Source: an uncultured Gammaproteobacteria bacterium (GTDB lineage Bacteria; Pseudomonadota; Gammaproteobacteria; DRLM01). Taken from it: a stretch of DNA of 64,000 nucleotides. The notes beneath the pieces were generated by a model, which saw nothing but the letters and a program-made list of their open reading frames with translations, had not been told where the DNA came from and did not search any database. Shown in pieces: positions 10,186 through 44,985 of this stretch (the stretch's first letter is position 1; the number at the start of each line of letters is the position of its first letter). The position numbers and the translations under genes were made by a program. The stretch covers positions 135,246 to 199,245 of the forward strand of contig CAMYKQ010000057.1 of NCBI GenBank assembly GCA_947259075.1, given 5' to 3'.

Positions 10186-12387
<2,202 letters not shown>

Positions 12388-12388
12388 T

Positions 12389-13792: not shown

Positions 13793-13825
13793 AAAGGGGT
13801 GCGATCACACAAATCGCACCCCTTT
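13793..13825 (-). terminator. putative intrinsic terminator hairpin downstream of the C25 peptidase gene
   Basis: AAAGGGGTGCGAT / ATCGCACCCCTTT 13-bp stem. Weak U-tract on the minus strand. Confidence 0.4.
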
Positions 13826-13847
13826 GATGAACGCCATGAGACACGCG

Positions 13848-26451: not shown

Positions 26452-29277
26452 TCACATCACGATCAACTCCGGCTCACCGCAATCGCGCAGAATCGCCGCG
26501 CGCGCCTGCTCGCGCAACTCGACTGCCGCGCGCCAATCGGTCCCGTCCGCGCGCAGCGGCGCGGCAATGCTCACCGTCACCGCCCCGCGCCGCGGGCGCC
26601 ACGAACCGGACGGCAGCACGGCGCGCGTGCCGCGCAAGGCTACCGGCATCACCTCGACGCCGGCGCGCGCCGCCGCGACGAAGGCGCCCATGCGAAACGG
26701 CCGCAGCCCCGGCGCGACGCCGAAGGTGCCTTCGGGGAAAAACAGCAGGCTGTGACCCGCACGCACTTTTTCCTCCAAACGATTGGCGGCGGCGGCGCTT
26801 TGCTGGGTATCGAAACGCTCGACGAATTCACAACCGATACGGCGCAGACACCAGCCCAGCAGCGGCCGCGCCGCCAACTCTTGTTTGGTGACGTAGTGCA
26901 AACCCAGCGGCAGGGCCGCCACCAAAATCAGCGCGTCGATATAACTGGCGTGATTGGCCACCACGATGCGCGTCGCCTCCGCGGCGAAATGCGCCTCGCC
27001 GCTCACGCTGAGACGGATGCCCGCGCAACGCGCGGCGATGCGCGCCGCCTGTTTGCAGCTATTCTGCCGCGCCCGCAGCGTGGGCAATACGGCCACGCCC
27101 GTTATCGCGATCAGCGCCCCGATTAAAAACACCAGCCACACATAGGCCGCGTACACAGCGCTCAGGGTTTGCGCGGCGCCCCGCCGCAGCGCGACACCAG
27201 CAGCGGCGGCGGCCAAAGTCAAACGTGGGCGCCACGGCGCCGCGGCGGCGTCTTCATCGCCGCGTTCGTAACGTTGGCGCGTCGCGTCGCGGCGCACCTT
27301 GCCGCTGGAGGTTTTCAGCACCGTGCGCGGCGGCGCCAGCACCACTTCGTCGGGCGGATTGCCGATGACGGCGATCACCGCCTCGTTGATGGCGGCGCGC
27401 AATTGCGCGCGCTGATCGCCGCGGGTCTCGCGGGTCTCGGCGAGAACGACTAAACGCTCGGTGCCCAAACTCGCGTCGCGGCTGGCGAAGGCCGCCACGC
27501 CGCCTTCGCGCACGCCGGGGAGGGCGCCCACCGCCGCCTCTAATTCGTAGGGATAAATATTGTGGCCGCCGCGGATGATGATGTCTTTGACTCGCCCGGT
27601 GATGAACAACTCGCCGCCGCTCATGTAGCCGCGGTCGCCCGAATCCAGCCACTCGCCGTGTATTAAGCGCGCGGTGGCCTTGGGATTGCGGAAGTAACCC
27701 TGACACGACGACGGTCCGCGAAATTGCACCCGCCCTTCGCGGCGCTCTTCGCAAAGCCGGTCGCGCTCATCGGCGATGCGCAGCGCGTGGCCGGGCAACG
27801 CGCGGCCGCAGGCGACGAAGCAGGCCGTGTCGGCGGCGGGCGTGGTGGTTTGCGCCCGCGGCGCGGCGAGGCCGCGGCCGGTCAAGGCCGCGCGGTCGAC
27901 GCAATCGATGAGCGGCTCGCGGCCTAAGGGGGGGAAAGCCAAACCTACCGAGGATTCCGCCAAACCATAAACCGGCGCCATGGTGTTCGAGCGGAAACCG
28001 TAGGGCGCGAAACGTTCGCTGAAACGGCGCAGCGTGTCCGGGCTCACCTGTTCCGCGCCATTGAAGGCCACTCGCCACGAACTCAAATCCAGCCCGGCCA
28101 GTTCCTCATCGGTGATTTTGCTCGCGCACAATTCATAGGCGAAATTGGGCCCCGCCGACAGCGTGCCGCGGTGACGCTGGATGGCCCGCAACCAGCGCGC
28201 CGGCCGCGCCAAAAAGCTCAGCGGCGGCATCAGCACCAAGGGCAGACCGTGATAGAGGCTGCCGAGCCAGGCGCCGATCAAACCCATATCGTGATAAAGC
28301 GGCAGCCAGCTGACGAAGACGTCGTCGCCCGTCACCTCCACCGCCTGGCCCATGGCGCGCACATTGGCCAGCAGATTGGCGTGGGTGAGCATCACCCCTT
28401 TCGGGTCGCCGGTGCTGCCCGAGGTGTATTGCAGCAGCGCCAAATCCGCGCCCGTAAGCCGCGGCCGTTCGCCGCCGCCCGCCACGGACAGCTCGTCCAC
28501 CGTCAGCACCCCGCGCAAGGTCGGGGCCAAAGCCTGCAGCGCCGCCGACAGCGCGCTGATCTCCGGCAAAGTGATCAGCAAGGGTGCCTGGCAATTATTG
28601 AGAATCACCGCTTGGCGCCGCAGATGGGCCTCCGCGGCGGCGCGCCGCACCGGCGGGTAAAGCGGCGCGGGCACGGCCCCCGCCAGCAGGATGCCGAGAA
28701 AGGCCACGAGAAATTCCCGGCTGGTGGGCAGCATCAGCGCCACCGCCTGTCCCGGCGCCACGCCCCGGGCGCGCAGACCCGCCGCCAGCCGCTGCGCCTC
28801 GCCGTACAGGTCTTGATAGCTCAGGGGAAGCGGCGGCTCATCGCCGGAGTAAAGGTAAACATGCACCCGCTCGGGCTCGGCGGCCACATGCCATTCCAGG
28901 GCCTCAACCAGGGTCGCGGCTTGTTCGGGAGCACCCCGGCCCGGTCCGGTAGCGGGGGTGATAATCGCCTCCTCGTCCCCCCTTTCTTCACTGCGTACGG
29001 CAACCGCGATGGCGGAAAGTAAGGCCCGCGCGGTCTCCGCCTCACCTAAAACCGGCTCCGGCAAGCGCACGCCGAAGGCCCGTTCGACCCGCAGCACCAG
29101 CTCGACGCGCGCCAAGCTATCCAAACCCAAATCCCGGTCAAAAACGCTGTTTAACTGCACGGGATGGCTCGTCTGACTGTGTATCTCTCTGACTAAGTTT
29201 TCAATGATTCCAAGAATACGCGCCTCATTGCGCTTCTCCCCCGCCCCATTTAACCCCGCCTCGCTCATGCGCTCCAT
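26452..29277 (-). CDS. tri-domain ACP - fatty acyl-AMP ligase (FAAL) - lysophospholipid acyltransferase (PlsC-like) fusion protein
   Basis: N-terminal PP-binding motif LGLDSLARVEL. AMP-binding core LQYTSGSTGDPKGVMLTHANL with FAAL-like features. TM helices. C-terminal HX4D acyltransferase motif VANHASYID and EGTF/PEGT motif. Confidence 0.8.
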   Translation of the reverse strand: MERMSEAGLNGAGEKRNEARILGIIENLVREIHSQTSHPVQLNSVFDRDLGLDSLARVELVLRVERAFGVRLPEPVLGEAETARALLSAIAVAVRSEERGDEEAIITPATGPGRGAPEQAATLVEALEWHVAAEPERVHVYLYSGDEPPLPLSYQDLYGEAQRLAAGLRARGVAPGQAVALMLPTSREFLVAFLGILLAGAVPAPLYPPVRRAAAEAHLRRQAVILNNCQAPLLITLPEISALSAALQALAPTLRGVLTVDELSVAGGGERPRLTGADLALLQYTSGSTGDPKGVMLTHANLLANVRAMGQAVEVTGDDVFVSWLPLYHDMGLIGAWLGSLYHGLPLVLMPPLSFLARPARWLRAIQRHRGTLSAGPNFAYELCASKITDEELAGLDLSSWRVAFNGAEQVSPDTLRRFSERFAPYGFRSNTMAPVYGLAESSVGLAFPPLGREPLIDCVDRAALTGRGLAAPRAQTTTPAADTACFVACGRALPGHALRIADERDRLCEERREGRVQFRGPSSCQGYFRNPKATARLIHGEWLDSGDRGYMSGGELFITGRVKDIIIRGGHNIYPYELEAAVGALPGVREGGVAAFASRDASLGTERLVVLAETRETRGDQRAQLRAAINEAVIAVIGNPPDEVVLAPPRTVLKTSSGKVRRDATRQRYERGDEDAAAAPWRPRLTLAAAAAGVALRRGAAQTLSAVYAAYVWLVFLIGALIAITGVAVLPTLRARQNSCKQAARIAARCAGIRLSVSGEAHFAAEATRIVVANHASYIDALILVAALPLGLHYVTKQELAARPLLGWCLRRIGCEFVERFDTQQSAAAANRLEEKVRAGHSLLFFPEGTFGVAPGLRPFRMGAFVAAARAGVEVMPVALRGTRAVLPSGSWRPRRGAVTVSIAAPLRADGTDWRAAVELREQARAAILRDCGEPELIVM

Positions 29278-29543: not shown

Positions 29544-31730
29544 ATGATCAAGACCATAATCAACGGCCTACACACTCTTCCCTCTAATACCGTTGGCCAC
29601 TCTTCACGCGCGCTTAAATTGAGCGCCTTACTGCTCGGTTTGCTTGCCGGAACATCAGCTTACGCAGCAACCTATACCGTCAACAACACCAGCGACGGCG
29701 TCGATGCCGCCCCCGGCGACGGCATCTGCGAAACCGCCACCGGTAACAATGTATGTACCTTGCGAGCGGCTATACAGGAATCCAACTCGGGGATCAGCAA
29801 CTCCATCATACTCCCCGCAGGCGAATATCTACTCACCATCGTCGGCAAAGACGAAAACCTATCCGCCACGGGCGATCTGGATATTAAAAAAGATGTCACC
29901 ATCACCGGCGCGGGTCAAACCACCACCATCATCAATGGCAATGGTGGCGTACTAAATGACCGCGTACTTCAGATTTTGGACGGCGCCACGGTGCGTATCT
30001 CCGGCCTCACGATTAAAAACGGTCACATCAGCAGCAGCGTAGGTGGCGGACTAGACAACGCCAATGGCACCACCACCTTGGACAGCGTAACCGTTAGCGA
30101 CAATATAGCGGACAACCCCGGTGAGATCACAGATGCAGGCGCCGGCGGCGGCATTTACAACAGCGGCAAACTCACCTTGACTAGCGTTACCGTGAGGAAT
30201 AACTCTTCTGACACAAATAACATGTCCACAGGCGGCGGCGGCATCTACAACGAAGCCATTCTGGCAATCGAAAACAGCACGATCATGAACAATAGCACCG
30301 TAGGCGCCAGTGCCGGCGGCGGCGGTTTACAAAACACCAACGAGGATCGTGCAGGCCTCAACAACGCCATAGCCACCATCATCAACACCACTTTTTCCGG
30401 TAATAACGCGATCATCGGCGGTGGTATCCGGAATTTATACGGCCAGGTCAATGTGGACCTGAGCGTATTCAATGGCAACCACGCCACCACATCCGGCGGC
30501 GGCATCGACAACTCGGGTGGCGGCATGACCATCAGCCGCAGCACCGTCCGCGATAACACCTCCAGCTTCACCGGCGCTGGCGTATCCAATTTCGCCGCGA
30601 TGAATCTCTCCCACAGCGCGGTTTACGACAACAACGCAAGCCTGCAGGGTGGCGGCATTTACAACACCGGTGATGGCGCTCTGGCCCTGCTCAACACCAC
30701 GGTCACGCGCAACAACGCAACCGAGGGTGGCGGCGTCTACAATCACCGTGAACTGAACGCCACCAATTCCACCCTCTACAACAACACTTCCAGCAAACCC
30801 GGCAGTGAGATCTTCGCCTGCGGCACCAAGGACGAAGACAAAGGATTGACCTGCTCCAATGACAGCAGCAAAGTGAAAAGCAATATCATCAACTCCATCG
30901 TCGGCAATACTACCGGCGCCGCGGCCTGCGGCGGCGATGTCAGCTTGATCATTTCCAAGGGCTACAACATCGACACCGCCAATACCTGCGGCTTCAACCA
31001 AACCAGTGACAGAAGCAACATCACGGGCTCCGCCGTATTCGCTGGCGGTTTCGTCAATAATGGCGGACCCACTTTCACCTATGCCATTCTTAATGGCAGC
31101 CTTGCCCACAACACCGGGGACAACATCAACTGCCCGGTCATCGATCAGCGTTTCAAACTGCGTGACAGCGCCTGCGACATTGGCGCCTACGAAATCAGCA
31201 ACACCGAGGCCACCTTTCAATTAATCGACTTGAATGTCGCGGTCACATCCAATGTCGCCACCTCCGGCGGCAGCCCGCAAGTCACTTTCACCATCACGGT
31301 CATCAACAATGGTCCCAGCCAAGCCACTGGCGTGGTCCTCACCGGTCAACTGCCGCCCTGGGGCAAGATCACCAGCGCCCGGACCAATATCAATGGCAGC
31401 AACTGCACCTCCACCTCGGAAACCGGCTTCCAGTGTACCTTGGGCACCATCAACGCCTACGCCAGCGCCCAAGTCTACATTGTGGTTGCCCCCACCCAAG
31501 CCGGTGAGTTGATACTGGAAGTGGATGCGGTCGCCGATCAAACCGACATCTTCCGTCCCGATAGCGGCAACACCACGTCCGAAACCGTACCCGTAGTCAC
31601 CGGCACCGCCGTCGGCGGCCCCGACGGCGGTAACAATTTCGCCGGTAAGAGCGGCGGCGGCGCAACGGATTGGGCCATCGCCCTATTGCTCTTGGTCCCC
31701 GCGGCGCGGCGCCTTGCGCGGCGATATTAA
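29544..31730 (+). CDS. secreted CSLREA-N-terminal / PMP-repeat (parallel beta-helix) / DUF11 protein with C-terminal TM + Arg-rich sorting-like tail
   Basis: Signal peptide. N-terminal YTVNNTSDGVDAAPGDGICETATGNNVCTLRAAIQESN (CSLREA-type). Many GGGIYN/GGGIDN repeats. DUF11-like C-terminal module. Ends SGGGATDWAIALLLLVPAARRLARRY. Confidence 0.6.
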   Translation: MIKTIINGLHTLPSNTVGHSSRALKLSALLLGLLAGTSAYAATYTVNNTSDGVDAAPGDGICETATGNNVCTLRAAIQESNSGISNSIILPAGEYLLTIVGKDENLSATGDLDIKKDVTITGAGQTTTIINGNGGVLNDRVLQILDGATVRISGLTIKNGHISSSVGGGLDNANGTTTLDSVTVSDNIADNPGEITDAGAGGGIYNSGKLTLTSVTVRNNSSDTNNMSTGGGGIYNEAILAIENSTIMNNSTVGASAGGGGLQNTNEDRAGLNNAIATIINTTFSGNNAIIGGGIRNLYGQVNVDLSVFNGNHATTSGGGIDNSGGGMTISRSTVRDNTSSFTGAGVSNFAAMNLSHSAVYDNNASLQGGGIYNTGDGALALLNTTVTRNNATEGGGVYNHRELNATNSTLYNNTSSKPGSEIFACGTKDEDKGLTCSNDSSKVKSNIINSIVGNTTGAAACGGDVSLIISKGYNIDTANTCGFNQTSDRSNITGSAVFAGGFVNNGGPTFTYAILNGSLAHNTGDNINCPVIDQRFKLRDSACDIGAYEISNTEATFQLIDLNVAVTSNVATSGGSPQVTFTITVINNGPSQATGVVLTGQLPPWGKITSARTNINGSNCTSTSETGFQCTLGTINAYASAQVYIVVAPTQAGELILEVDAVADQTDIFRPDSGNTTSETVPVVTGTAVGGPDGGNNFAGKSGGGATDWAIALLLLVPAARRLARRY

Positions 31731-35558: not shown

Positions 35559-36317
35559 TTAATCAAGCTCGGCGCGCCACGCAAGATCACCGAGCCACGT
35601 GCCGTGATGGATAGACGTGACTGAACCGGCAACGGCAAGGGCGCCGGTGTAGGCGTCCTCCGTTTCCAAATCATGCAAACTCCATTGCGCTTGCATCCCG
35701 CATGCCGCGGCGCGCGCCCGCGCGCCGCTGACATCTACTTCCGTCAACCTCCGCGCCAAACCCATCCCCGTGGCTTTCAGCAAGGCCTCTTTTCTTGTCC
35801 AGTAACGCATCAACGCCCGCAAGCGCAGCGGCGGCGGCAGCGTCCGCCACACCGCGCGTTCACGCGGCGTGCAAATTCGCCGCGCCAGCGTCTCCAAATC
35901 CATCGCATCGTTCAACTGTTCGATGTCGGCACCGATATCACCAACCCGCGTCACCGCCAGCAGCATCCGCTCGCCACTGTGCGCCAGATTGAAATATAAG
36001 GGCGAGTCATCCGCGTCCATCGCTAAGGCGGGTTTGCCCCTGGGACCGTAAATGAAACGCAAACTCCCGCCGTGCCGCCCTAAATAACGGCCTAAGATCT
36101 CACGCACGATGCCACGGCCCGCCACGAAGTCCGCGGATTGCTGCGGATGATTGAAGCGCGCGGCACGCAAACGCTCATCCTCGCTGAGCAAGGCGTCAAA
36201 ATAGGCGCCGCGCACCGCCGCGCGGCGCAAATTACTAAACCAGACATGCACCTCACCCTCGGAACAGTGCAAATTCATCCCGGGAAATAAGGCGGCGCCG
36301 CGCGCGTGCTCAAGCAT
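35559..36317 (-). CDS. 4'-phosphopantetheinyl transferase (Sfp/EntD type)
   Basis: FNLAHSG motif and W/KEAxxK motif (WTRKEALLKATG). Start codon uncertain (36317 or 36278). Confidence 0.8.
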   Translation of the reverse strand: MLEHARGAALFPGMNLHCSEGEVHVWFSNLRRAAVRGAYFDALLSEDERLRAARFNHPQQSADFVAGRGIVREILGRYLGRHGGSLRFIYGPRGKPALAMDADDSPLYFNLAHSGERMLLAVTRVGDIGADIEQLNDAMDLETLARRICTPRERAVWRTLPPPLRLRALMRYWTRKEALLKATGMGLARRLTEVDVSGARARAAACGMQAQWSLHDLETEDAYTGALAVAGSVTSIHHGTWLGDLAWRAELD

Positions 36318-36768
36318 TACTCACCGCGCGGTACGCCCCGAGTATGCCGATCAAGCGCGCGATATCACCTTCAACTTGTTTGGCCAACACCTTCTTCAAC
36401 AGGCTGCGGGGAATGATGCCGAAAAAACCACCGGGTTCCGATTCAAAGACCCAATCGATCTGCGTGCTATTACCCAAGGGCGTGAAACGATAACTGCCCT
36501 TGAAAAGCATGGGGCCGCTAAGCGTTTCATAGGCGTAGGTTTGAAATGGCTCGTAGTCGGTCACAATCGAGGTAAAGGGCATATCGCGGCCGAGAAATTG
36601 AAAGCGGATAGCGTATTGCGTGCCCTCACCTATGGGCGCACCCGGTTCATCCAACTCAACTCCCTGACACGAGGCCTGCCAATATTGGTCATTGAGCGGA
36701 TTGCTGATGTAGGAAAAAACAAAATCCACCGGGCTGTTGACGAGATAACTGTATTCCACCTTAATCAT
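36310..36768 (-). CDS. SRPBCC (START/Bet v1-like, polyketide cyclase/dehydrase-type) small protein
   Basis: 152 aa alpha+beta protein of the SRPBCC type. Overlaps the PPTase start by 8 nt (operon). Confidence 0.6.
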   Translation of the reverse strand: MIKVEYSYLVNSPVDFVFSYISNPLNDQYWQASCQGVELDEPGAPIGEGTQYAIRFQFLGRDMPFTSIVTDYEPFQTYAYETLSGPMLFKGSYRFTPLGNSTQIDWVFESEPGGFFGIIPRSLLKKVLAKQVEGDIARLIGILGAYRAVSNA

Positions 36769-36812: not shown

Positions 36813-39800
36813 TTAACAAGCCATTGCCTGACGCGATGTCATATGCGGGCGCACGCCGTTGAGATAACGTGCCGAGATTTGTATATGCGGTTCGTACATC
36901 ATTGAGTTGTGATCTCCCGGCACTTCGACGACAGAGAAGGGCCGCGACACCACCTTGTCCCAGCCGAGCATCGGGCCGTAATCCACCGGCTCATCCTCGG
37001 CGCGCAGCAAGGTCATGGCGCCGTGATAATCACCCGATTCATAGGTCTGCAGGGCAATGCCATTCGCTAGATAGACTTCGAAATAACGGTACAAGCGCGC
37101 GGTATCGGCATCGTGCGGCAAGACTTCGATCTCGCGGGCGCGTTGCAACACGTACTCGAACATGCCTTCGCCCGCCACCGCGCGTAATTCTTCCGGCGCG
37201 ATGTTGAGTGTCTTACCATAAGGCACGGCAAGATCGCGGGCGAACCAGGACAATAAGGTGGCGTCGTCGCCATCGGAGGGGGCGTTCTCGGGAATGGGCG
37301 CGCGGGTATCGAACATCACCAGCTCCGCCACCTCTTCACCCGCCGCCTCCAATTGCCGCGCCGCCTCGAAGGCGATCAAACCACCGAAGCACCAGCCGCC
37401 CAAGTGATACGGCCCTTGCGGTTGCTGCGCGCGGATGATTTCCAAATAACACCGCGCCAGATCGGGCACGCTTACTTCCGCGAGACTCGCATCTTCGAGA
37501 CCGGGCGATTGCAGCGCGAACACCGGGCGCTGCTGATCAAGATGCCGCGTCAGCGCCAGATAGCAAAACACTGTACCGCCGATGGGATGCATTAAATACA
37601 GCGGCGGCACGGCGCCCGTGCCGCGTAATGGCACCAGCGCCGACGCGGCCTCCGCCGCGCCATTGTGTTCGCGCAGCAAGCGCGCCAAGGCCTCCACCGT
37701 ATTGTGCTGGAACAAGGTGGACACCGGCAATTCCACGCCGAAACGCTCACGGATACCCGCGACCAATTGCACCGCCAGCAAGGAATGGCCGCCCAAATCA
37801 AAAAAGTTTTGCGTGACGCCTACCGGGTGCACGCCCAAGAGTTGCTCCCACAGGGATGCGAGCTGAATTTCACCGCGGTCGCGCGGCGCGACGAAACCGG
37901 CCAATGCCGCATGCGCGCCCTCCGCCGGCGCCGGCAGCGCGCGCCGGTCGATCTTGCCATTGGGCGTGAGGGGAAACGCCGCCAAGGGCACGATGAGGCT
38001 GGGTAACATGTAAGCGGGCAAATGGCCGGCAAGGTGCGCCTTCAATGCGGCGGCGGACACCTCACCATCGACAGCCGTCACATACGCGACCAAGCGTTGA
38101 TCGCCGGGACGGTCTTCACGCACCATCACCACCGCTTGGTGCACGGTCGGGTGACGGCACAACTGCGTTTCGATCTCGCCCAACTCGATACGGAAACCCC
38201 GCAGCTTCACTTGATGATCCAAACGGCCCAGGCATTCCAGCGTGCCGTCGCGCCGCCAGCGCGCGAGATCGCCGGTTTTGTACATGCGCGCCTCGCCCGC
38301 GGCGAAGGGATCGCGGACGAATTTCTCCGCCGTCAATTCCGGGCGGTGTAAATAACCGCGGGCGACGCCGGCGCCGGCGATGCACAACTCCCCCGGCACG
38401 CCGGGCGGCACGGGTTGCAGGGCCTCATCGACGATATAGATTTGGGTATTGGCGATGGGACGGCCGATGGCGATGGCGCCCGCGCCGGACTCGACGCGCA
38501 TCACGCTCGACCATACCGTGGTCTCGGTGGGCCCGTACATATTCCACAGCGCCGCGACGCGCGGCAACAAGGCCTCCGCCACTTGGCGCGGCAGGGCTTC
38601 ACCGCCGCACAAGGCGGTGAGCCGGCTGCATCCATTCCAGCCATCGGACAGCAGCATGCGCCAAGTCGCGGGCGTGGCCTGCATCAGCGTCGCGCCGCTG
38701 CTTTCCAGCAAGGCTTGCAGGCGTTGCGCATCGCTGCTGTCTTCGCGGCTGACGATCAGCGTCATCGCCCCCACGGTGAGCGGCAATAGTAACTCCAGCA
38801 CCGCGATATCAAACGACAGCGTGGTCACCGCCAGCATCACATCGTCGCCGCGCATGCCCGGCTCACGCGCCATGCTCGCGAGAAAATTCACCACCGCGCC
38901 GTGGGGCACGGCGACGCCTTTGGGTTTACCGGTGGAACCCGAGGTGTAAATGACGTAAGCGGATGAGGTGGAACTGACGACGCGATGCGGGTTATGCCCG
39001 GGAAAAGTGGCGATCTCGGGCCAATCGTGATCGAGACTCAGCGCGCGCGCTACCGGCAAGTCCAGCTCGGCCCACACGGCTTCGTGGGTGAGCACCAGAT
39101 CGATCCCGGCGTCCTCCATCATCATGCGCAAACGGTCGCGGGGAAAGGCCGGATCCAAAGGCACATAGGCCGCGCCGGTCTTGAGCACCGCCAGCATCGC
39201 CACCAGCATATCGCCGTTGCGTGCGCTGCATATGCCGATGTGCTGGCCCGCGGCCGCGCCGCTCTCGATGAGATAATGCGCCAGCTGATTGGCGCGCTGA
39301 TTCAACACGCGGTAACTGAATACTTGCTCGCCGCCCATCACGGCGGTCTTGTCCGGTGTCGCCGCCGCCTGGGCCTCCACCAGTTGATGCACGCCGTTCA
39401 CGGCAGGCAAAGGCTGTTCCGTGCGATTCCATTGCAGCAACACCTGCTCGCGCTCCGCCGCCGTCAGCAAGGGTAAACGCGCGATACGCAGCCCCGGATT
39501 CGCCACGATACCTTTCAATAATTCCACGAACTGCCCGGCGAGCGCGCTTATCGTCTCCGGCGCGAACAGCGCCGTGTCGTATTTCCACACGCCAAAGAGT
39601 TCGCCCTCGGCCTCGCCACCCATCTCCAGCGCCACATCCACTTGCCCTTCCTGTTGCGGCAAGGGAAAAGGCGATAAGGTCATGGCACCGAAGGCCACGG
39701 CCTCCGCCGCTTTATCCGACAGGGAAAAGAAGGAGGCCAATTCTTTGAACTGCGGCAGCCGCTCCCAGGAAAATCCGGCTTGAAATAAGGGCGGACGGCT

Positions 39801-40895
39801 GAGGTCGCGCTCCGTTACCAGCTTCTCCACCAAGGAGGCGAAGGGATATTCTTGGTGACGCAGGTCTTCACCGGTGTGGTCGCGTGTCTGCAACAGCAGC
39901 TCGCGAAACGTCATCTCGCCGCTGACCGCGCCGCGCAAAACCACGGTGTTAACAAAATGGCCGACCGTGCGGCGAAAGGCCTTATCGAAGCGGCCCGCGA
40001 CCGGCGCGCCGACTAAAATGTCTTCCTGGCCGGTATAACGATGCAGCAAGACGTAATAGGCCGTAAGCATCAAGGTGAACAAAGTCACGCCTTCCGCACG
40101 CGCCAAGCTATGCAGCGCGGCGGTCAAATCCGTGTCGAAATGGAACCCAAGCGAGGCGCCGCGATAACTCTGCAGCGGCGGGCGCGGATAATCGCTGGCA
40201 AGATTCAGCACGGGCAACTCGCCAGTTAAACGCTCGCGCCAATACGCCGCCATGCGCGCGCGCGCCGCACTCGCCAGCTTCTCCTGCTGATGATGTACGA
40301 AAGCGGGGTAATCGCTGCCCAGCGGCGGCAGATTCACTGCCTTAGCCGCGGTCAAATCCTGGTAGACCTGACGAAATTCATCGAGCAACACCGCCAGCGA
40401 CCAAAAATCCACGGCGATATGATGCGCGCTCCACACCATCAAGGCGTCACCCTTGCCACGGCGGTAGAGACGCACGCGCAGCAAGGGTGCGCGGGCGAGA
40501 TCAAACGGCTTTTGCGCATCGGCGCTGGCACGTTCCCGCAGCTGCGTATCATTCCATCCAGCCGCCACGATGCTCGCGCTGTCGACCTCAACGTGCGGCA
40601 ACACCTCTTGGCGCGGCACGCCGGCGGCATCAACAAGGAAACGCGTGCGCAAAGCGGCATGCCGGTCCAGTAAATAACTCAAGGCCGCATCGAAGGCCGC
40701 CGCATCGATAGCCGAGATCACTCGCGCGGCGAACACCAGATTGTAGGCGCCATTATCCGGCGCCATTTGCTGCACGAACCACAGCCCGCGCTGTACATCC
40801 GCCAACGGAAATGTCTCCGTCGTGGCCCGTGTGTTATCACCCACCACCGGCCGGGCTGCGGTGCTATGTTTATACTGTACAACGTTGCTAGCCAT
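36813..40895 (-). CDS. single-module non-ribosomal peptide synthetase: starter C - A - T(PCP) - TE, with Cys in the TE nucleophile position
   Basis: C domain HHIAVDFWS. A domain YTSGSTGKPKGV...NMYGPTETT...GELCIAGAGVARGY...PNGKIDRRAL. PCP FFDLGGHSLLAV. TE GGWCFGG...MFDTRAP...GDHNSMM. Confidence 0.9.
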   Translation of the reverse strand: MASNVVQYKHSTAARPVVGDNTRATTETFPLADVQRGLWFVQQMAPDNGAYNLVFAARVISAIDAAAFDAALSYLLDRHAALRTRFLVDAAGVPRQEVLPHVEVDSASIVAAGWNDTQLRERASADAQKPFDLARAPLLRVRLYRRGKGDALMVWSAHHIAVDFWSLAVLLDEFRQVYQDLTAAKAVNLPPLGSDYPAFVHHQQEKLASAARARMAAYWRERLTGELPVLNLASDYPRPPLQSYRGASLGFHFDTDLTAALHSLARAEGVTLFTLMLTAYYVLLHRYTGQEDILVGAPVAGRFDKAFRRTVGHFVNTVVLRGAVSGEMTFRELLLQTRDHTGEDLRHQEYPFASLVEKLVTERDLSRPPLFQAGFSWERLPQFKELASFFSLSDKAAEAVAFGAMTLSPFPLPQQEGQVDVALEMGGEAEGELFGVWKYDTALFAPETISALAGQFVELLKGIVANPGLRIARLPLLTAAEREQVLLQWNRTEQPLPAVNGVHQLVEAQAAATPDKTAVMGGEQVFSYRVLNQRANQLAHYLIESGAAAGQHIGICSARNGDMLVAMLAVLKTGAAYVPLDPAFPRDRLRMMMEDAGIDLVLTHEAVWAELDLPVARALSLDHDWPEIATFPGHNPHRVVSSTSSAYVIYTSGSTGKPKGVAVPHGAVVNFLASMAREPGMRGDDVMLAVTTLSFDIAVLELLLPLTVGAMTLIVSREDSSDAQRLQALLESSGATLMQATPATWRMLLSDGWNGCSRLTALCGGEALPRQVAEALLPRVAALWNMYGPTETTVWSSVMRVESGAGAIAIGRPIANTQIYIVDEALQPVPPGVPGELCIAGAGVARGYLHRPELTAEKFVRDPFAAGEARMYKTGDLARWRRDGTLECLGRLDHQVKLRGFRIELGEIETQLCRHPTVHQAVVMVREDRPGDQRLVAYVTAVDGEVSAAALKAHLAGHLPAYMLPSLIVPLAAFPLTPNGKIDRRALPAPAEGAHAALAGFVAPRDRGEIQLASLWEQLLGVHPVGVTQNFFDLGGHSLLAVQLVAGIRERFGVELPVSTLFQHNTVEALARLLREHNGAAEAASALVPLRGTGAVPPLYLMHPIGGTVFCYLALTRHLDQQRPVFALQSPGLEDASLAEVSVPDLARCYLEIIRAQQPQGPYHLGGWCFGGLIAFEAARQLEAAGEEVAELVMFDTRAPIPENAPSDGDDATLLSWFARDLAVPYGKTLNIAPEELRAVAGEGMFEYVLQRAREIEVLPHDADTARLYRYFEVYLANGIALQTYESGDYHGAMTLLRAEDEPVDYGPMLGWDKVVSRPFSVVEVPGDHNSMMYEPHIQISARYLNGVRPHMTSRQAMAC

Positions 40896-40904
40896 GACAT
40901 CCCC

Positions 40905-41333
40905 CTATGGAATCAAATTGCTCAAGAGCTCGTCCATCTGTTGCGGATCGAGTCTGTCCAGATCATCGAGATCGTCCTTATCGATGACACCCTGCTTTTT
41001 GCTCTCCGTCACACGGCCCTCCAGCTTGGCCTTCACCTCGGGCATGGCATCCAACTGCTCTTCGAGAAATCCAGCGATAGCGGCCACCGTGGGGTAATCC
41101 CACAATAGAGTGGAAGGCAGGTCGACATTCAGCCAATCTTCCAAATCACCCGCGAGCGTTACCGCATCAATGGAATCCAAACCATAATGCGGCAAGGGAC
41201 GGGTCACATCTATCTCGGCGGCATCGATTCGCAAGGTCTTCGACAACATTTCCGTAAGCGTGGACTCAAGCTGTTTAGCGAGCGTCTCATTGACTTTAAT
41301 ATCCTGTATCTTTCTAACTGCATTAGCACTCAT
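40905..41333 (-). CDS. stand-alone acyl carrier protein with acidic C-terminal extension
   Basis: PP-binding motif HYGLDSIDAVTLAGDLE. Start either MSANA (41333) or MPKRR (41354). Overlaps the end of the upstream dehydrogenase gene. Confidence 0.8.
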   Translation of the reverse strand: MSANAVRKIQDIKVNETLAKQLESTLTEMLSKTLRIDAAEIDVTRPLPHYGLDSIDAVTLAGDLEDWLNVDLPSTLLWDYPTVAAIAGFLEEQLDAMPEVKAKLEGRVTESKKQGVIDKDDLDDLDRLDPQQMDELLSNLIP

Positions 41334-43233
41334 GGCGATCCTCCTTTTTGGCATTCATGGCCATACTTTCAGTCTTGGCCAAGGCGAGTGGAACAATGGA
41401 AAACAAACGGTATTCATCGAACAAATAAAACAACTGCTGCGCGACGCGCTGGTGATAGGCATCGGGCAAGTCCGGTTTTTGCGTTTGCGGCTGGGCCAGC
41501 AGACGGTCGAGCGCGAGCACCAGCCATTCCCCTCCCGCGAAGAAGGCGTCAAGCGCGTCGCGATTGTGCAACCACATCTGCAAGCAGGCGGACGCGGCAT
41601 GCAGCTGGGCATAACGCGAGGCCAAGCCAAACATCAGCGCTGATTGCGGATGCTGCCCCGCTTCCGCCGCCGCCTCTAAAGCGGAGTCGAAATCACGCAA
41701 GGCCTGCTCCAGCACACCCGCCATCTGTTTCAGGTGACTTAATACCGTCACGCCTAAAGCCTCATCGCCTTGCAATGCACGGAGGGCGTTTATAGCCGCG
41801 ACCAGGCCTTGCATCACGTCGTCGTGCCCCCGGCTAAATAAATCCAGCTTGGTGCCATCGAAGACCGGCAGGGTTTCATCGAGAGAAAACACCGTGGTCA
41901 AGCGGGTACGGCGCGCGCCGTCATCGGTGAGCTGTTCCCGGCGGCGGGTCTTCAGCAAATGCCGCAACTGCAAGCCGAGGGCATGTAGACAGACTTGCGT
42001 GCTGCCGTCGAAGAGGCTGACCACCCCGCCATCGCGCAGCATTTTCTGAAATATGCCTGACATATGACGCTCGCGGATAAAGTGACGCGCGCCCAAGACC
42101 ACCGAAAGTTGCTGAGTAGTACGCTCCAAGGTCACCGGCACGAAATATTTCACCACCACCGACCACACGCTGAATTGTTCGGTGCTGACATGCAGCCCGC
42201 GCGCGGCGGCGGTGGCCATGCAATCGCAAATCAAGATGTCGAGAAAGGCGTCGCTCAATATCCGCCGCGCATTGGGGATGTCGAACACCGTGCCGTTGTA
42301 CAAGCGGCGGTTTACCGCAAATTGCATGGTTGAACGCAGCGCGGTGTCCACCGCCGCTAGCGACAGACCGGCGCACAGGGTGCGCGTCACTTGAAAGGCG
42401 CGCAGTGCCAGCTCCAAACCCTCGCCCACTTCGCCGACGCGGCTGCTCTCCGGCACCAGACAATCATTGAAACGAATACCGCTGATATCGCAGCCGCGCA
42501 GACCGAGGGTCTTCACCCGGGGCAGATTCGAATATTGCGCGGGATCGAGGTCACGCTTCTCCAGCATGAACAGTGACAGGCTGCGGCTGTCGCGGGCATC
42601 ACTGGTCTTGGCCAGCACCGCCACGAGGCCGGAACGGGTGGCGCGGTTGATCGGCCATTTCTCCCCGCTAAGGCGGTAACCGCCCTCGGTCTTCACTGCC
42701 TTCGTATGATTAGCAACGAGGTCGGCGCCGTGCTGCTCTTCCGAATAGGCGAGGGTCGGCGCGTCCTTGGTCCAACGCAGCACTTTCGCGAGATGGCGTT
42801 TTTGCTGTTCATTACCTCCCACCCAAATCAGCGTCGACCAAATCAGCGTGCTATAGGTGATGGCGGTGGTGAGATCGCGCCGCGCCGCCACCCGCGCCAT
42901 GGATTGAAACTCTTCATATGAAGTAAAGCGCCCGCCGTAGGCCGCGGGCACGTAATAATGATTCATGCCGAAACGGTACAATTCGTCCACCGCCGCTTGC
43001 GGAAAGGCCTCCTGCTCATCCCACTGCATCACGTTGTGGAATGAGATGACGTTCGCCGGATTATTGGGGTCACCGAGAAAGCGCTCCAATTCCTCGCTGG
43101 CGCGGTATTGCAGCGGAAGCTCCCAGCTCCGCTCCTGCGCGTCCTGCGCGTCCTGCGCGTCCTGCGCGTCCTGCGCGTCCTGCGCGTCCTGCGCGTCCTG
43201 CGCGACTGTATGTTCAATGCGTGCCGTTTGCAT
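41323..43233 (-). CDS. acyl-CoA/acyl-ACP dehydrogenase family protein (636 aa) with N-terminal (DAQ)7 repeat
   Basis: ACAD fold features (YGGRFTSYEE, LAYSEEQHGADL...EKWPINRAT). N-terminal VAQDAQDAQDAQDAQDAQDAQDAQE. Confidence 0.8.
   Translation of the reverse strand: MQTARIEHTVAQDAQDAQDAQDAQDAQDAQDAQERSWELPLQYRASEELERFLGDPNNPANVISFHNVMQWDEQEAFPQAAVDELYRFGMNHYYVPAAYGGRFTSYEEFQSMARVAARRDLTTAITYSTLIWSTLIWVGGNEQQKRHLAKVLRWTKDAPTLAYSEEQHGADLVANHTKAVKTEGGYRLSGEKWPINRATRSGLVAVLAKTSDARDSRSLSLFMLEKRDLDPAQYSNLPRVKTLGLRGCDISGIRFNDCLVPESSRVGEVGEGLELALRAFQVTRTLCAGLSLAAVDTALRSTMQFAVNRRLYNGTVFDIPNARRILSDAFLDILICDCMATAAARGLHVSTEQFSVWSVVVKYFVPVTLERTTQQLSVVLGARHFIRERHMSGIFQKMLRDGGVVSLFDGSTQVCLHALGLQLRHLLKTRRREQLTDDGARRTRLTTVFSLDETLPVFDGTKLDLFSRGHDDVMQGLVAAINALRALQGDEALGVTVLSHLKQMAGVLEQALRDFDSALEAAAEAGQHPQSALMFGLASRYAQLHAASACLQMWLHNRDALDAFFAGGEWLVLALDRLLAQPQTQKPDLPDAYHQRVAQQLFYLFDEYRLFSIVPLALAKTESMAMNAKKEDRHEC
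43132..43203. repeat. 9-bp perfect tandem repeat (GTCCTGCGC x7 plus one degenerate copy) inside the dehydrogenase coding sequence
   Basis: Seen directly at 43141-43203, with CTCCTGCGC at 43132-43140. Encodes the in-frame (DAQ)n. Confidence 0.95.
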
Positions 43234-43236
43234 GAC

Positions 43237-44985
43237 TCAAGCCTCCATCAACCGCGGCAGAGCGCCGCTTTGCCACATGACCCTGCAGGCATTACGCTGC
43301 ACCTTGCCGCTGGAGGTGATGGGTATCACCCCGGCCTTCACCAGCACGATTTTCCGTAACTGCAATTGATGTTCGGCGGAGATCGCCGCGCGCGCCGCAG
43401 CCGCGGCCGCGGGCAGCTCCGCCTCATCGTGGCGCCGCTCCACTTCGTGGATCAGCACCAACTCTTCATTACCGTCATCGTCAATGGCGAAGGCGGCGCC
43501 GCGTCCCGCGCGCAGCAGCGGATGACTCAGCGCCGCGGTCAGCTCGATGTCTTGCGGATAGTGGTTGTGACCGCGAATGATGATTAACTCTTTAGAGCGG
43601 CCAGTGACGAACAACTCGCCGTCTTTCATGAAACCCAGATCGCCGCTGCGCATGAACGGTCCCGCGCCATTGGCGAGGCGCGCGCCGAAGGTCTCCGCCG
43701 ATTCGGCGGGACGATTCCAATAACCCTGCGCCACACTGGGGCCCGCGATCCACACCTCACCCACCGTGCAATCCCTGGCTTGCAGACGGCTGACGGGGTC
43801 GACGATGACGACTTGCTCGCTGGCGGAGGGCCGGCCCGAACTCACCAAGCGCCGCCCCGTCTCGGCCTGCTGCCCCGGTTGCACCGCATGCACCTCGCCC
43901 CGTTCCAGCGCGAGGCGATCGATGGTGGTCATCACCGGCGCTTGATCGGCCGCGCTGCCAGTGACGAACAAGCTCGCCTCCGCCAAGCCGTAGCAGGGAT
44001 AAAAAGCCTGACGGCGGAAACCGCAAGAAGCGAAGAATTGGGTGAAGCGTTGCAAGGTATCGGCGCGCACCGGCTCGGCGCCGTTGAAGGCCACTTGCCA
44101 CGAACTAAGGTCCAGCGTCTCGCGCTGCGCGGGGGTGATCTTGTTCAAACACAACTCATAGGCGAAGTTCGGCCCGCCGCTGATGGTGGCGCGGTATTTC
44201 GAAATCGCCTGCAACCAGCGTATGGGCCGTTGCAGCGCGGTGACCGGCGACATCAACACCACCGGAAAGCCGCCGAACAGCGGCACCAGCACACCGCCGA
44301 TCAAACCCATATCGTGATACGGTGGCAGCCAGATCACGCCGCGCGATTCGCCGTTGGCGCCGAAGCGGCGGTAGATCAGCGCGAGATTGTGCATGAGATT
44401 ACCGTGAGTCAGCATTACCCCGCGCGGCGCGGCGGTGGAACCGGAGGTGTATTGCAAAAAAGCCAAACTGCCGGACTGACTGCCGGGGTCTTGCCAAGCC
44501 GCGGCGCGCTCCAGCGGGATTTCATCGGTGGCGATCCACGGGGTTTGTTCGCCGCCGGGCAAGCGCCGCATCTCGTCGTCGAGATTAGCGAGCACGGCGC
44601 GGCTGGTGAGCATCACCGCGGCGCGGGCATCCGCGCTGACTTTATGCACGCGCTCCAAGGAGGCGTTGCGGCGCGGCGCGAACACCGGCACCGCGATCAT
44701 GCCCGCGTACAAACAAGCGAAGAAGGCGGCGATGAATTCCATGCCCGGCTGATACAACAGCACCGCGCGTTCGCCGCCGAGATTTAGCGCCTGCAACTCC
44801 GCGGCGATGGCGCGGACCCGTTCATCCAATTCACCGTAGCTGATGTGTAACTCGGCACCATCACCCTCGCGTAAAAAGGTATAGGCGCGCTGCGCGGGCA
44901 TGAGCCGCGCGCGCTCGCGCAACAAGTCCACCAAGGTGGCGGCCTGCGCCGCGGGGTGGCTGATGATGCGATTGAGATTGTCCAT
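43237..44985 (-). CDS. fatty acyl-AMP ligase (FAAL, FadD32/MbtM-like)
   Basis: LQYTSGSTAAPRGVMLTHGNLMHNL. FAAL-type N-terminus. Stop abuts the ACAD start. Confidence 0.85.
   Translation of the reverse strand: MDNLNRIISHPAAQAATLVDLLRERARLMPAQRAYTFLREGDGAELHISYGELDERVRAIAAELQALNLGGERAVLLYQPGMEFIAAFFACLYAGMIAVPVFAPRRNASLERVHKVSADARAAVMLTSRAVLANLDDEMRRLPGGEQTPWIATDEIPLERAAAWQDPGSQSGSLAFLQYTSGSTAAPRGVMLTHGNLMHNLALIYRRFGANGESRGVIWLPPYHDMGLIGGVLVPLFGGFPVVLMSPVTALQRPIRWLQAISKYRATISGGPNFAYELCLNKITPAQRETLDLSSWQVAFNGAEPVRADTLQRFTQFFASCGFRRQAFYPCYGLAEASLFVTGSAADQAPVMTTIDRLALERGEVHAVQPGQQAETGRRLVSSGRPSASEQVVIVDPVSRLQARDCTVGEVWIAGPSVAQGYWNRPAESAETFGARLANGAGPFMRSGDLGFMKDGELFVTGRSKELIIIRGHNHYPQDIELTAALSHPLLRAGRGAAFAIDDDGNEELVLIHEVERRHDEAELPAAAAAARAAISAEHQLQLRKIVLVKAGVIPITSSGKVQRNACRVMWQSGALPRLMEA

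What the first reader, a model, noticed from the sequence alone, without database searches (positions are those of the whole stretch)
37380..37400. Thioesterase domain with Cys replacing the catalytic Ser (GWCFG instead of GxSxG)
The NRPS C-terminal TE reads YHLGGWCFGGLIAFEAARQL. The nucleophile codon is TGC (plus-strand GCA at 37389-37391). Asp (MFDTRAP) and His (GDHNSMM) complete a triad. Cys-TE domains are rare. The best-known case, ObiF in obafluorin biosynthesis, uses the Cys to catalyse beta-lactone formation, so this enzyme may release a strained lactone rather than a free acid.
Basis: partly seen in the sequence, partly recalled or inferred. Interest (0 to 1): 0.8.

Follow-up and report, generated by a model that had tools for sequence, protein, structure and literature searches.

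The report
Known-type lipo-glycine synthetase, cysteine thioesterase
The release domain of this peptide synthetase really has cysteine where most have serine. That cysteine is the conserved hallmark of an already crystallised enzyme family (AB3403 of Acinetobacter) that loads glycine, so the proposed beta-lactone cannot form.

Summary
The ORF at window 36813-40895 (minus strand) is a 1360-aa C-A-PCP-TE synthetase. Its thioesterase reads GGWCFGG, with Cys1169 (TGC, 37389-37391) at the nucleophile elbow, Asp1196 and His1329. It is not a sequencing error: every close relative has Cys.

The ObiF-like beta-lactone reading is not supported, for three reasons:
- The adenylation-domain code is DILQLGMVWK, which specifies glycine. 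Glycine has no beta-hydroxyl.
- The triad Asp sits in the ordinary position I. ObiF and SulM use position II.
- The TE profile matches ObiF1 only marginally (E 7e-4) but matches A. baumannii AB3403 (PDB 4ZXH/4ZXI) at E 8e-135.

AB3403 is already reported in the literature as a Cys-nucleophile, glycine-activating NRPS. The operon here (MMPL, FAAL, ACAD-like, ACP, NRPS, SRPBCC, PPTase) mirrors the Acinetobacter A1S_0112-0119 cluster. That cluster drives biofilm and motility and yields acinetin 505.

This is therefore a new member of a known family, from an uncultured gammaproteobacterium. What the invariant Cys does chemically remains unsolved for the whole family. That open question is the only real residual interest.

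The parts
45019..47343 (-). MMPL/HAE3-type RND-superfamily transporter. First gene of the operon and the presumed exporter of the lipid product.
   Evidence: Pfam MMPL 1e-34 and NCBIfam HAE3 1e-48. The gap to the FAAL gene is 33 nt. It is 84% identical in the syntenic MAG locus L001.
43237..44985 (-). Fatty acyl-AMP ligase (FAAL). Activates the fatty acid starter.
   Evidence: NCBIfam fatty-acid--AMP ligase PRK05850 1.6e-142. It also matches positions 9-563 of PvdL-type model PRK05691. It is 36-49% identical to the gene at the same position in Acinetobacter, Pseudomonas and Undibacterium loci.
41323..43233 (-). Acyl-CoA-dehydrogenase-like flavoenzyme (636 aa) with a C-terminal extension. The usual catalytic Glu is replaced by Asp409.
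   Evidence: Pfam Acyl-CoA_dh N, M and C domains. LFDGSTQV aligns to iyEGTnqi of solved ACADs. The Asp is conserved in 73 of 73 orthologues.
40905..41354 (-). Stand-alone acyl carrier protein (counterpart of A1S_0114/AB3404).
   Evidence: Pfam PP-binding 7e-17. It contains a GLDSID phosphopantetheine site and keeps its syntenic position in 80 loci.
36813..40895 (-). Single-module NRPS, C-A(Gly)-PCP-TE(Cys), 1360 aa.
   Evidence: Pfam domains. It is 39-40% identical over about 1325 aa to Acinetobacter orthologues and 79% identical to MAG L001. The Stachelhaus code is DILQLGMVWK.
39441..40817 (-). Condensation domain with an intact HHIAVD motif (His159, 40419-40421). Accepts acyl-ACP as donor.
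   Evidence: Pfam Condensation 3e-98, residues 27-485.
37953..39377 (-). Adenylation domain (core plus C-terminal subdomain), glycine code.
   Evidence: Pfam AMP-binding and AMP-binding_C. The code DILQLGMVWK was extracted by alignment to GrsA.
37674..37862 (-). Peptidyl carrier domain. Phosphopantetheine site Ser1038 (37782-37784).
   Evidence: Pfam PP-binding 2e-18. GGHSLL motif.
36897..37604 (-). Type I thioesterase domain of the AB3403 clade.
   Evidence: Pfam Thioesterase 1e-30. phmmer to 4ZXH gives E 2.6e-85 and the family profile gives 8e-135. Foldseek top hit is 4zxh, TM 0.88.
37389..37391 (-). Codon TGC for Cys1169, the TE nucleophile (GGWCFGG).
   Evidence: It is invariant in the family and sits at the strand-helix elbow in the model.
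37308..37310 (-). Codon GAT for Asp1196, the triad acid in position I (MFDTRAP).
   Evidence: It aligns with MIDTRAP of AB3403, is invariant, and follows strand 110-116 in the model.
36909..36911 (-). Codon CAC for His1329, the triad base (GDHNSMM).
   Evidence: It aligns with GDHSS of AB3403 and is invariant.
36310..36768 (-). SRPBCC / helix-grip protein (152 aa) that always follows the NRPS. Likely a lipid-binding hand-off protein, or a cyclase.
   Evidence: Pfam Polyketide_cyc2 5e-15. AF2 pLDDT 86; Foldseek hits include ZhuI ARO/CYC, START and Bet v 1. It is present after the NRPS in nearly all loci and fused to the RND pump in 12 of 12 Acinetobacter loci.
35559..36317 (-). Sfp/HetI-type 4'-phosphopantetheinyl transferase. 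Last gene of the operon; overlaps the SRPBCC gene by 8 nt.
   Evidence: Pfam ACPS and NCBIfam HetI 6e-57. Overlap.

Best explanation
The gene is a new member of the AB3403/A1S_0115 family of single-module lipo-glycine synthetases. An active-site cysteine in the thioesterase is the family norm.

**Proposed pathway:**
1. The FAAL adenylates a long-chain fatty acid and loads it on the stand-alone ACP, which the operon's Sfp-type PPTase has made holo.
2. The ACAD-like flavoenzyme oxidises a carrier-bound intermediate.
3. The condensation domain N-acylates glycyl-S-PCP.
4. The acyl-glycyl chain moves by transthioesterification onto Cys1169, which is activated by His1329 and Asp1196. This gives a thioester acyl-enzyme.
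5. The chain is released, and the SRPBCC protein and the MMPL pump take it out of the cell.

**Shown here:** domain order, glycine code, Cys/Asp/His placement, family membership and operon conservation.

**Inferred:** the order of the chemical steps, the substrate of the ACAD-like enzyme, the export role of the SRPBCC protein and the pump, and the release chemistry.

**Release step.** Beta-lactone closure is excluded because glycine has no beta-hydroxyl. I rate the remaining options as follows:
- About 0.55: a non-hydrolytic or otherwise demanding release that needs the more reactive thioester and gives a reactive lipo-glycine derivative.
- About 0.4: plain hydrolysis to N-acylglycine.
For: - **Architecture.** C-A-PCP-TE by Pfam.
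- **Closest solved structure.** The TE is 50-57% identical to that of AB3403 (PDB 4ZXH/4ZXI), with identical GGWCFGG and matching D-T-R-A-P and G-D-H motifs. The family profile gives E 8e-135. Foldseek TM-score is 0.88.
- **Published description of AB3403.** It is described as having a nucleophilic Cys with the Asp in position I (PMC11298585; PMC6668435). It binds and prefers glycine (PMC5376624; PMC10510592).
- **Glycine code.** The window code DILQLGMVWK matches the family consensus DILQLGxxWK. Acinetobacter has DILQLGVVWK.
- **Synteny.** The order FAAL-ACAD-ACP-NRPS-SRPBCC is conserved in Acinetobacter, Pseudomonas, Burkholderiales and marine gammaproteobacteria. Streptomyces keeps ACAD-(ACP)-NRPS-SRPBCC.
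- **Operon structure.** Tight gene spacing (33, 3, -32, 9, 44 and -8 nt) indicates one operon.
- **Lipoinitiation logic.** The FAAL and the NRPS match consecutive parts of the PvdL-type model PRK05691.
- **A demanding release step.** Cys is invariant across phyla even though Ser is one base change away. In ObiF, SulM and BulbE, Cys-to-Ser mutants lose the special product and hydrolyse instead. The Acinetobacter operon's detected product, Ac-505, looks like a Cys-Gly (glutathione-derived) adduct of an electrophilic precursor.
Against: - No enzyme of this family has a defined product. Reviews call AB3403 'uncharacterized'.
- The Ac-505 structure rests on mass spectrometry only, and its acyl-glycine linkage was reported as neither N- nor O-linked. 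That does not fit simple N-acylation.
- The window operon lacks homologues of A1S_0117 and A1S_0118 and uses a different RND-superfamily pump placed at the other end. Its product may therefore differ from the Acinetobacter one.
- Conserved acidic residues (E-D-E, TE residues 221-223) sit near position II.
- Whole-protein identity to Acinetobacter is only about 40%.
Confidence: 0.85

Rival explanations
1. One reading: this is an ObiF-like Cys-TE that closes a beta-lactone on an N-acyl-beta-hydroxy-amino acid and releases a strained lactone.
For: The GxCxG nucleophile motif is shared with ObiF. It is a single-module C-A-PCP-TE, like ObiF1. Literature notes that Cys in TEs often signals difficult ring closures.
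Against: - The A-domain code is glycine, in this gene and in nearly all family members. The orthologue is crystallised with glycine.
- The triad Asp is at position I, whereas ObiF and SulM use position II with Gly at position I.
- The family profile scores ObiF1 at 22 bits (E 7e-4), ranked below NocB, Vlm2, EntF, Pks13, FAS and DEBS Ser-TEs.
- There is no MbtH-like domain, aryl-carrier system, or beta-hydroxy-amino-acid-forming enzyme in the operon or the window.
Confidence: 0.02
2. The Cys is functionally equivalent to Ser. The TE is an ordinary hydrolase that releases a free N-acylglycine lipoamino acid (a surfactant or signal), and the Cys is a frozen accident of this lineage.
For: - Glycine offers no side-chain nucleophile.
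- The Asp position and overall fold are those of ordinary type I TEs.
- Thioesters and oxoesters hydrolyse at similar rates (PMC11536411), so a Cys-TE can hydrolyse perfectly well.
- The cluster is linked to surface motility and biofilm in Acinetobacter, which fits a surfactant-like lipoamino acid.
Against: - Cys is strictly invariant across proteobacterial and actinobacterial members. A neutral site should show some Ser, because the nearest TE relatives are mostly Ser.
- No free N-acylglycine was reported from Acinetobacter. A thioether adduct of an apparently electrophilic precursor was found instead.
Confidence: 0.35
3. The Cys codon is a sequencing or assembly error (TGC for TCC or AGC), or the domain is inactive.
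For: A single base change separates the Cys and Ser codons.
Against: The same Cys occurs in every independent relative, in isolates and in metagenomes, and in the AB3403 crystal structure sequence. The ORF is intact and all core motifs are present.
Confidence: 0.01

Closest known systems
AB3403 (ABBFA_003403; A1S_0115 orthologue) of Acinetobacter baumannii, PDB 4ZXH/4ZXI, in the quorum-sensing-regulated operon A1S_0112-0119 (acinetin 505)
   Same: - C-A-PCP-TE architecture.
- Glycine code DILQLGxxWK.
- TE motif GGWCFGG with Cys nucleophile, Asp in position I (DTRAP) and GDH His.
- Upstream FAAL, ACAD-like gene (with Asp in place of the catalytic Glu) and stand-alone ACP.
- Downstream SRPBCC domain, RND-superfamily exporter and Sfp-type PPTase.
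   Different: - Only about 40% identical overall (TE 47-57%).
- The exporter is an MMPL/HAE3-type pump placed upstream, about 24% identical to the Acinetobacter RND.
- The SRPBCC protein is a separate gene, not fused to the pump.
- There are no homologues of A1S_0117 (porin-like) or A1S_0118.
- The host is an uncultured gammaproteobacterium. Its nearest relative is MAG CAVSNY010000004.1, at 76-90% across the cluster.
- Regulation and product are unknown.
ObiF1 thioesterase (obafluorin beta-lactone synthetase; PDB 6N8E)
   Same: A Cys nucleophile in a GxCxG motif at the end of a single C-A-PCP-TE module.
   Different: - ObiF1 loads a beta-hydroxy amino acid; this enzyme loads glycine.
- The ObiF1 Asp is at position II, in a RifR-like triad.
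- ObiF1 has an appended MbtH-like domain and an aryl starter.
- Profile similarity to this TE family is marginal (E 7e-4, 22 bits).
SulM thioesterase (sulfazecin monobactam formation)
   Same: Cys nucleophile.
   Different: - SulM has a Gln-Cys-Asn motif, an Asp at position II and an Arg-rich pocket for a sulfamated Dap substrate.
- Here the motif is Trp-Cys-Phe, the Asp is at position I and the substrate is Gly.
- SulM is not among the best 60 PDB profile matches.
BulbE thioesterase (bulbiferamide indolylamide macrocyclisation)
   Same: A Cys/Asp/His triad with the Asp 27 residues after the Cys (Cys961/Asp988), the same spacing as Cys1169/Asp1196. It shows that position-I Cys-TEs can perform non-hydrolytic release with a poor nucleophile.
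   Different: BulbE acts on a ureido-peptide with a Trp indole nucleophile.
PvdL-type and daptomycin-type lipoinitiation (FAAL + carrier protein + starter C domain)
   Same: The FAAL and the NRPS match consecutive segments of PvdL-type model PRK05691. The logic of fatty acid activation, ACP loading and N-acylation of the first amino acid is the same.
   Different: Here the assembly line stops after one amino acid. It also carries an ACAD-like enzyme and a Cys-TE.

Membership tests
AB3403/A1S_0115-type lipo-glycine NRPS | Single module with C-A-PCP-TE domain order | tested here: met
   Pfam Condensation 27-485, AMP-binding 507-849 and 907-981, PP-binding 1012-1074, Thioesterase 1098-1333.
AB3403/A1S_0115-type lipo-glycine NRPS | Glycine-specific adenylation domain | tested here: met
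   The code is DILQLGMVWK, against Acinetobacter DILQLGVVWK. Positions were validated on GrsA, which returned DAWTIAAICK. AB3403 binds and prefers Gly. This is a sequence prediction only; no assay was done.
AB3403/A1S_0115-type lipo-glycine NRPS | TE with Cys nucleophile (GGWCFGG) and triad Asp in position I | tested here: met
   Residue-by-residue alignment to 4ZXH. C90, D117 and H250 are invariant. Secondary-structure placement comes from the model. The description of AB3403 comes from the literature.
AB3403/A1S_0115-type lipo-glycine NRPS | High-scoring, full-length TE homology to AB3403, above all other solved TEs | tested here: met
   452 bits against 107 bits for the next best. Foldseek E 3e-33 and TM 0.88, against 1e-17 for the next.
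AB3403/A1S_0115-type lipo-glycine NRPS | Operon with FAAL, ACAD-like enzyme, stand-alone ACP, SRPBCC domain, RND-superfamily exporter and PPTase | tested here: met
   tblastn synteny across 80 loci and Pfam/NCBIfam hits. Exceptions: A1S_0117/0118 homologues are absent, and the pump type and position differ.
AB3403/A1S_0115-type lipo-glycine NRPS | Product related to acinetin 505; quorum-sensing control; role in motility and biofilm | not testable with these tools
   Known only from Acinetobacter genetics and mass spectrometry.
ObiF-type beta-lactone-forming Cys-TE | GxCxG with catalytic Cys | tested here: met
   GWCFG at NRPS residues 1167-1171.
ObiF-type beta-lactone-forming Cys-TE | Terminal residue is a beta-hydroxy-alpha-amino acid supplied by the A domain | tested here: not met
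   Glycine code. No transaldolase or hydroxylase in the operon or window.
ObiF-type beta-lactone-forming Cys-TE | Triad Asp relocated to position II (RifR-like), with Gly at position I | tested here: not met
   An invariant Asp occupies position I, 27 residues after the Cys, aligned to the AB3403 Asp. Criteria are from PMC6668435 and PMC11298585. Caveat: conserved E-D-E lies near position II and 3D distances were not measured.
ObiF-type beta-lactone-forming Cys-TE | Close sequence relationship to ObiF TE; appended MbtH-like domain | tested here: not met
   6n8e scores 22 bits, E 7e-4, at about rank 57. No MbtH domain in Pfam.
SulM-type beta-lactam-forming Cys-TE | Gln-Cys-Asn motif, Asp at position II, Dap-specific A domain, Arg-rich pocket | tested here: not met
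   The motif is Trp-Cys-Phe, the Asp is at position I and the code is Gly. The Arg-rich pocket was not examined.

The most novel reading that the evidence does not exclude
The invariant Cys of the whole AB3403 clade marks a release reaction not yet described for thioesterase domains. It acts on an N-acyl-glycyl (or oxidised glycyl) thioester. Candidates are closure by the amide oxygen to a 5(4H)-oxazolone (azlactone), a carbon-carbon (Dieckmann-type) closure, or release after C-alpha-N oxidation by the unusual Asp-base ACAD homologue. Any of these would give the reactive electrophilic lipid whose glutathione-derived adduct was seen as acinetin 505. The same chemistry would then operate in this gammaproteobacterium and in at least 126 species-level genomes across Proteobacteria and Actinobacteria.
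Probability: 0.35. Interest if true: 0.7.

Novelty: new member of a known kind. Interest (0 to 1): 0.3.

Why it matters
As stated, the finding points to a second ObiF-like beta-lactone synthetase, and that claim does not hold.

What remains is modest but real. The window holds a compact seven-gene version of a widespread biosynthetic cluster. That cluster was found in 126 species-level genomes, in Acinetobacter, Pseudomonas, Burkholderiales, marine gammaproteobacteria and many Streptomyces. Its Acinetobacter member controls biofilm, motility and virulence, yet its true product and the reason for its cysteine thioesterase are still unknown.

The strict conservation of Cys argues that the family's chemistry is not simple fatty-acyl-glycine hydrolysis. 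So does the equally strict Glu-to-Asp change in the partner dehydrogenase. A minimal operon lacking A1S_0117 and A1S_0118 could be a simpler system for reconstitution.

Tried and rejected
- **Sequencing error.** Rejected on conservation.
- **ObiF or SulM membership.** Rejected on the Gly code, the Asp position and profile scores.
- **Organism identification.** There are no Rfam or tRNA hits in the window. An exact-protein look-up of the NRPS found no record. The best available clue is that the TE is 84% identical to uncultured Gammaproteobacteria MAGs that share proS/nadC synteny.
- **Primary papers not held.** These are Drake et al. 2016 and Allen & Gulick 2014. Their content is cited only through papers that are held.
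- **Literature on a defined product.** Searches beyond Ac-505, and for the same gene set in other genera, found nothing relevant.
- **Triad distances.** I could not measure His-Asp distances, to compare position I with the conserved E-D-E near position II, because model coordinates are not exposed.
- **SRPBCC protein.** It has no sequence match in the PDB. The fold search gives only the generic helix-grip family, so its role is inferred from synteny and the Acinetobacter fusion.
- **Bias in the genomic scan.** The genome-contig scan used one pattern containing GGWCF, so its 80 of 80 Cys count is biased. The unbiased evidence is.
Full report
**1. The observation**

On the minus strand, window 37400..37380 reads ggc ggc tgg tgc ttc ggt ggt (GGWCFGG). 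The Cys codon TGC is at 37391..37389. It lies in a 1360-aa ORF (36813-40895, minus strand). Pfam finds these domains in the product:

| Domain | Residues |
|---|---|
| Condensation | 27-485 |
| AMP-binding | 507-849 |
| AMP-binding_C | 907-981 |
| PP-binding | 1012-1074 |
| Thioesterase | 1098-1333 |

In NRPS numbering, the nucleophile is Cys1169, the acid is Asp1196 (MFDTRAP, 37308-37310) and the base is His1329 (GDHNSMM, 36909-36911).

An AlphaFold model of the last 281 residues (pLDDT 85) puts the Cys between a beta strand (84-89) and a helix (91-105). That is the nucleophile elbow of an alpha/beta hydrolase. The Asp sits directly after the next strand (110-116), and the His sits after strand 242-246.

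**2. Is the Cys real?**

Yes.
- A search with the TE domain alone found 83 proteins. Every hit of at least 44% identity that covers the site has Cys (GGWCFGG, once GYCFGG). Below about 40% identity Ser takes over.
- An index-free HMMER scan of 1.84 billion cluster representatives gave the same picture. All 20 of the top 21 representatives (212 bits or more) that cover the site have Cys. Lower-scoring TE domains split 133 Ser to 21 Cys.
- All 80 genomic loci fetched with a family alignment have Cys. One of the two search patterns contained GGWCF, so that count is biased.
- Cys90, Asp117 and His250 (TE-fragment numbering) are invariant in a 14-sequence alignment.

A base-calling error is therefore excluded. 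The Cys is a clade-defining character. Cys-TEs are uncommon rather than extremely rare.

**3. What it is**

The best match in the PDB is AB3403 (ABBFA_003403) of Acinetobacter baumannii, entries 4ZXH and 4ZXI.
- phmmer gives E 2.6e-85. The alignment shows identical GGWCFGG, MIDTRAPIPEN against MFDTRAPIPEN, and GDHSS against GDHNS.
- A family profile scores AB3403 at 452 bits (E 8e-135). The next solved TE scores 107 bits.
- Foldseek on the model again ranks 4zxh first (E 3e-33, TM 0.88, 50% identity).

The literature already records that AB3403 is the one other structurally characterised NRPS thioesterase with a nucleophilic cysteine. It also records that its triad Asp is in the ordinary position after strand beta-6 ('position I'), unlike ObiF and SulM (PMC11298585; PMC6668435).

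**4.

I aligned the A domain to GrsA. The ten Stachelhaus positions returned DAWTIAAICK for GrsA itself, which validates them. The window protein gives DILQLGMVWK, a glycine code. Almost the whole family has DILQLGxxWK, and an Acinetobacter orthologue has DILQLGVVWK.

AB3403 was crystallised with glycine and AMP in the A domain. Glycine was its best substrate among the 20 proteinogenic amino acids (reported in PMC5376624, and PMC10510592).

Glycine has no beta-hydroxyl, so an ObiF-type 4-exo-trig beta-lactone closure has no nucleophile. Three further points count against ObiF membership:
- The Asp is at position I, whereas ObiF has Gly there.
- The family profile finds ObiF1 (6n8e) only at 22 bits, E 7e-4. 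That is below the Ser-TEs of NocB, Vlm2, EntF, Pks13, FAS and DEBS.
- The operon and the rest of the window contain no MbtH-like domain, aryl-carrier or DHB genes, or PLP transaldolase.

The Cys in this lineage thus arose independently of ObiF and SulM.

**5. The surroundings**

The NRPS is the fifth of seven tightly packed minus-strand genes. The gaps between them are 33, 3, -32, 9, 44 and -8 nt.

| Gene | Window coordinates |
|---|---|
| MMPL/HAE3-type transporter | 45019-47343 |
| Fatty acyl-AMP ligase (FAAL) | 43237-44985 |
| Acyl-CoA-dehydrogenase-like protein | 41323-43233 |
| Stand-alone ACP | 40905-41354 |
| NRPS | 36813-40895 |
| SRPBCC (Polyketide_cyc2) protein | 36310-36768 |
| HetI/Sfp-type PPTase | 35559-36317 |

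A tblastn comparison with the 80 loci shows that the order FAAL-ACAD-ACP-NRPS-SRPBCC is conserved. It holds in Acinetobacter (calcoaceticus-baumannii complex), Pseudomonas (entomophila, silvicola), Undibacterium and other Burkholderiales, Marinobacterium, Kangiella and Cellvibrio. Many Streptomyces keep ACAD-(ACP)-NRPS-SRPBCC.

This is the gene set of the quorum-sensing-regulated A. baumannii operon A1S_0112-A1S_0119. That operon is needed for surface motility, pellicle or biofilm formation and virulence. It is also required for production of acinetin 505 (PMC5376624).

The window version differs in four ways:
- It lacks homologues of A1S_0117 and A1S_0118.
- Its pump is of a different RND-superfamily type (about 24% identity) and sits upstream.
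- Its SRPBCC protein is a separate gene.
- Its closest relatives are uncultured Gammaproteobacteria MAGs. For example, CAVSNY010000004.1 is 76-90% identical across the cluster and shares the proS and nadC neighbours.

The rest of the window is chromosomal housekeeping: aconitase, clpB, proS, nadC, purM, purN, hda, dcd and apbC.

**6. How it most likely works**

Shown here: the domain order, the glycine code, the intact HHxxxD motif (His159), the PCP serine (Ser1038), the Cys/Asp/His triad, and the conserved partners.

Inferred from established NRPS lipoinitiation logic, and from the way the FAAL and NRPS match consecutive parts of PvdL-type model PRK05691:
1. The FAAL loads a long-chain fatty acid on the ACP.
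2. The C domain N-acylates glycyl-S-PCP.
3. The acyl-glycyl chain is passed to Cys1169 as a thioester.
4. The chain is released.
5. The SRPBCC protein and the pump handle export.

The export role of the SRPBCC protein rests on two results. It has a helix-grip (START / Bet v 1 / ARO-CYC) fold. It is also fused in frame to the N-terminus of the RND pump in 12 of 12 Acinetobacter loci.

The release chemistry is not known for any member of the family. I favour a non-hydrolytic or otherwise demanding release at about 0.55, for three reasons:
- Cys is invariant across phyla although Ser is one mutation away.
- In ObiF, SulM and BulbE, Cys-to-Ser variants lose the special product and hydrolyse instead. 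BulbE has the same 27-residue Cys-Asp spacing as this TE.
- The Acinetobacter metabolite looks like a Cys-Gly (glutathione-derived) thioether adduct of an electrophilic precursor.

Plain hydrolysis to N-acylglycine remains a serious alternative at about 0.4.

**7. Caveats**

- The Ac-505 structure is based on mass spectrometry only. Its reported acyl-glycine linkage ('neither N- nor O-linked') does not fit simple N-acylation.
- Conserved acidic residues (E-D-E, NRPS 1300-1302) lie after the strand where ObiF and SulM place their Asp. I could not measure distances in the model. I rely instead on the published description of the AB3403 crystal structure.
- The Drake 2016 and Allen & Gulick 2014 papers were not available.

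**8. Verdict**

- The catalytic-Cys reading is supported.
- The beta-lactone inference is not supported.
- The gene is a new member, from an uncultured gammaproteobacterium, of a known and structurally characterised family in which a Cys thioesterase is the rule.

Interest is low to moderate. The finding itself is explained. The family's chemistry is still an open question, and this compact operon could help address it.

Noticed in passing
window 42007-42009 (minus strand), in the ACAD-like gene 41323-43233; also loci L001-L080: The canonical catalytic Glu of the acyl-CoA dehydrogenase I-Y-E-G-T motif is Asp here (LFD409GSTQV). It aligns to iyEGTnqi of solved ACADs. The Asp is conserved in 73 of 73 orthologues of this cluster family. 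From memory, an Asp at this position is the base in nitroalkane oxidase. The enzyme may therefore not be an ordinary alpha,beta-acyl dehydrogenase.
   Followed up: partly
window 43133-43204: A perfect 9-nt x 8 tandem repeat (TCCTGCGCG on the plus strand) lies inside the 5' end of the ACAD-like ORF. It encodes an in-frame (AQD)n tract that is not aligned in orthologues. It could be a length-variable N-terminal tail.
   Followed up: partly
window 36310-36768; Acinetobacter loci L050, L054, L055, L058, L064-L066, L068, L069, L071, L072, L074 at about 10811-14580: The small SRPBCC/helix-grip protein that always follows the NRPS is fused in frame to the N-terminus of the RND transporter in all 12 Acinetobacter loci (ORFs of 1221-1256 aa). 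It is a separate gene in the window, Pseudomonas, Undibacterium and others. This is a gene-fusion hint that it works with the exporter.
   Followed up: partly
window 26452-29277 (minus strand): A 941-aa fusion protein carries PP-binding, AMP-binding and PlsC-type acyltransferase domains. The AMP-binding part is FAAL-like, 33-38% identical to relatives of the cluster FAAL. This is a second, unrelated fatty-acid-activating system about 7 kb from the operon, in a stretch of 68% GC.
   Followed up: no
window 47344-53490: A stretch of about 6 kb upstream of the operon has lower GC (53-56%) and only short ORFs. Most have no Pfam match; the exceptions are a cupin, a HEAT-repeat protein and a DUF1499 protein. 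There are no Rfam or tRNA hits anywhere in the window.
   Followed up: partly
window 13848-17252 (minus strand) and 29544-31730 (plus strand): There is a large Peptidase_C25 (gingipain-family) protein of 1134 aa. There is also a 728-aa DUF11 / choice-of-anchor-Q surface-type protein. Neither is related to the finding.
   Followed up: no
loci L010, L015, L019-L025 and other Streptomyces loci: Streptomyces versions of the cluster keep ACAD-(ACP)-NRPS(Cys-TE)-SRPBCC. They show no hit to the proteobacterial FAAL at the corresponding position, and several have longer NRPS ORFs (up to 2091 aa). The starter-loading step may differ there.
   Followed up: no
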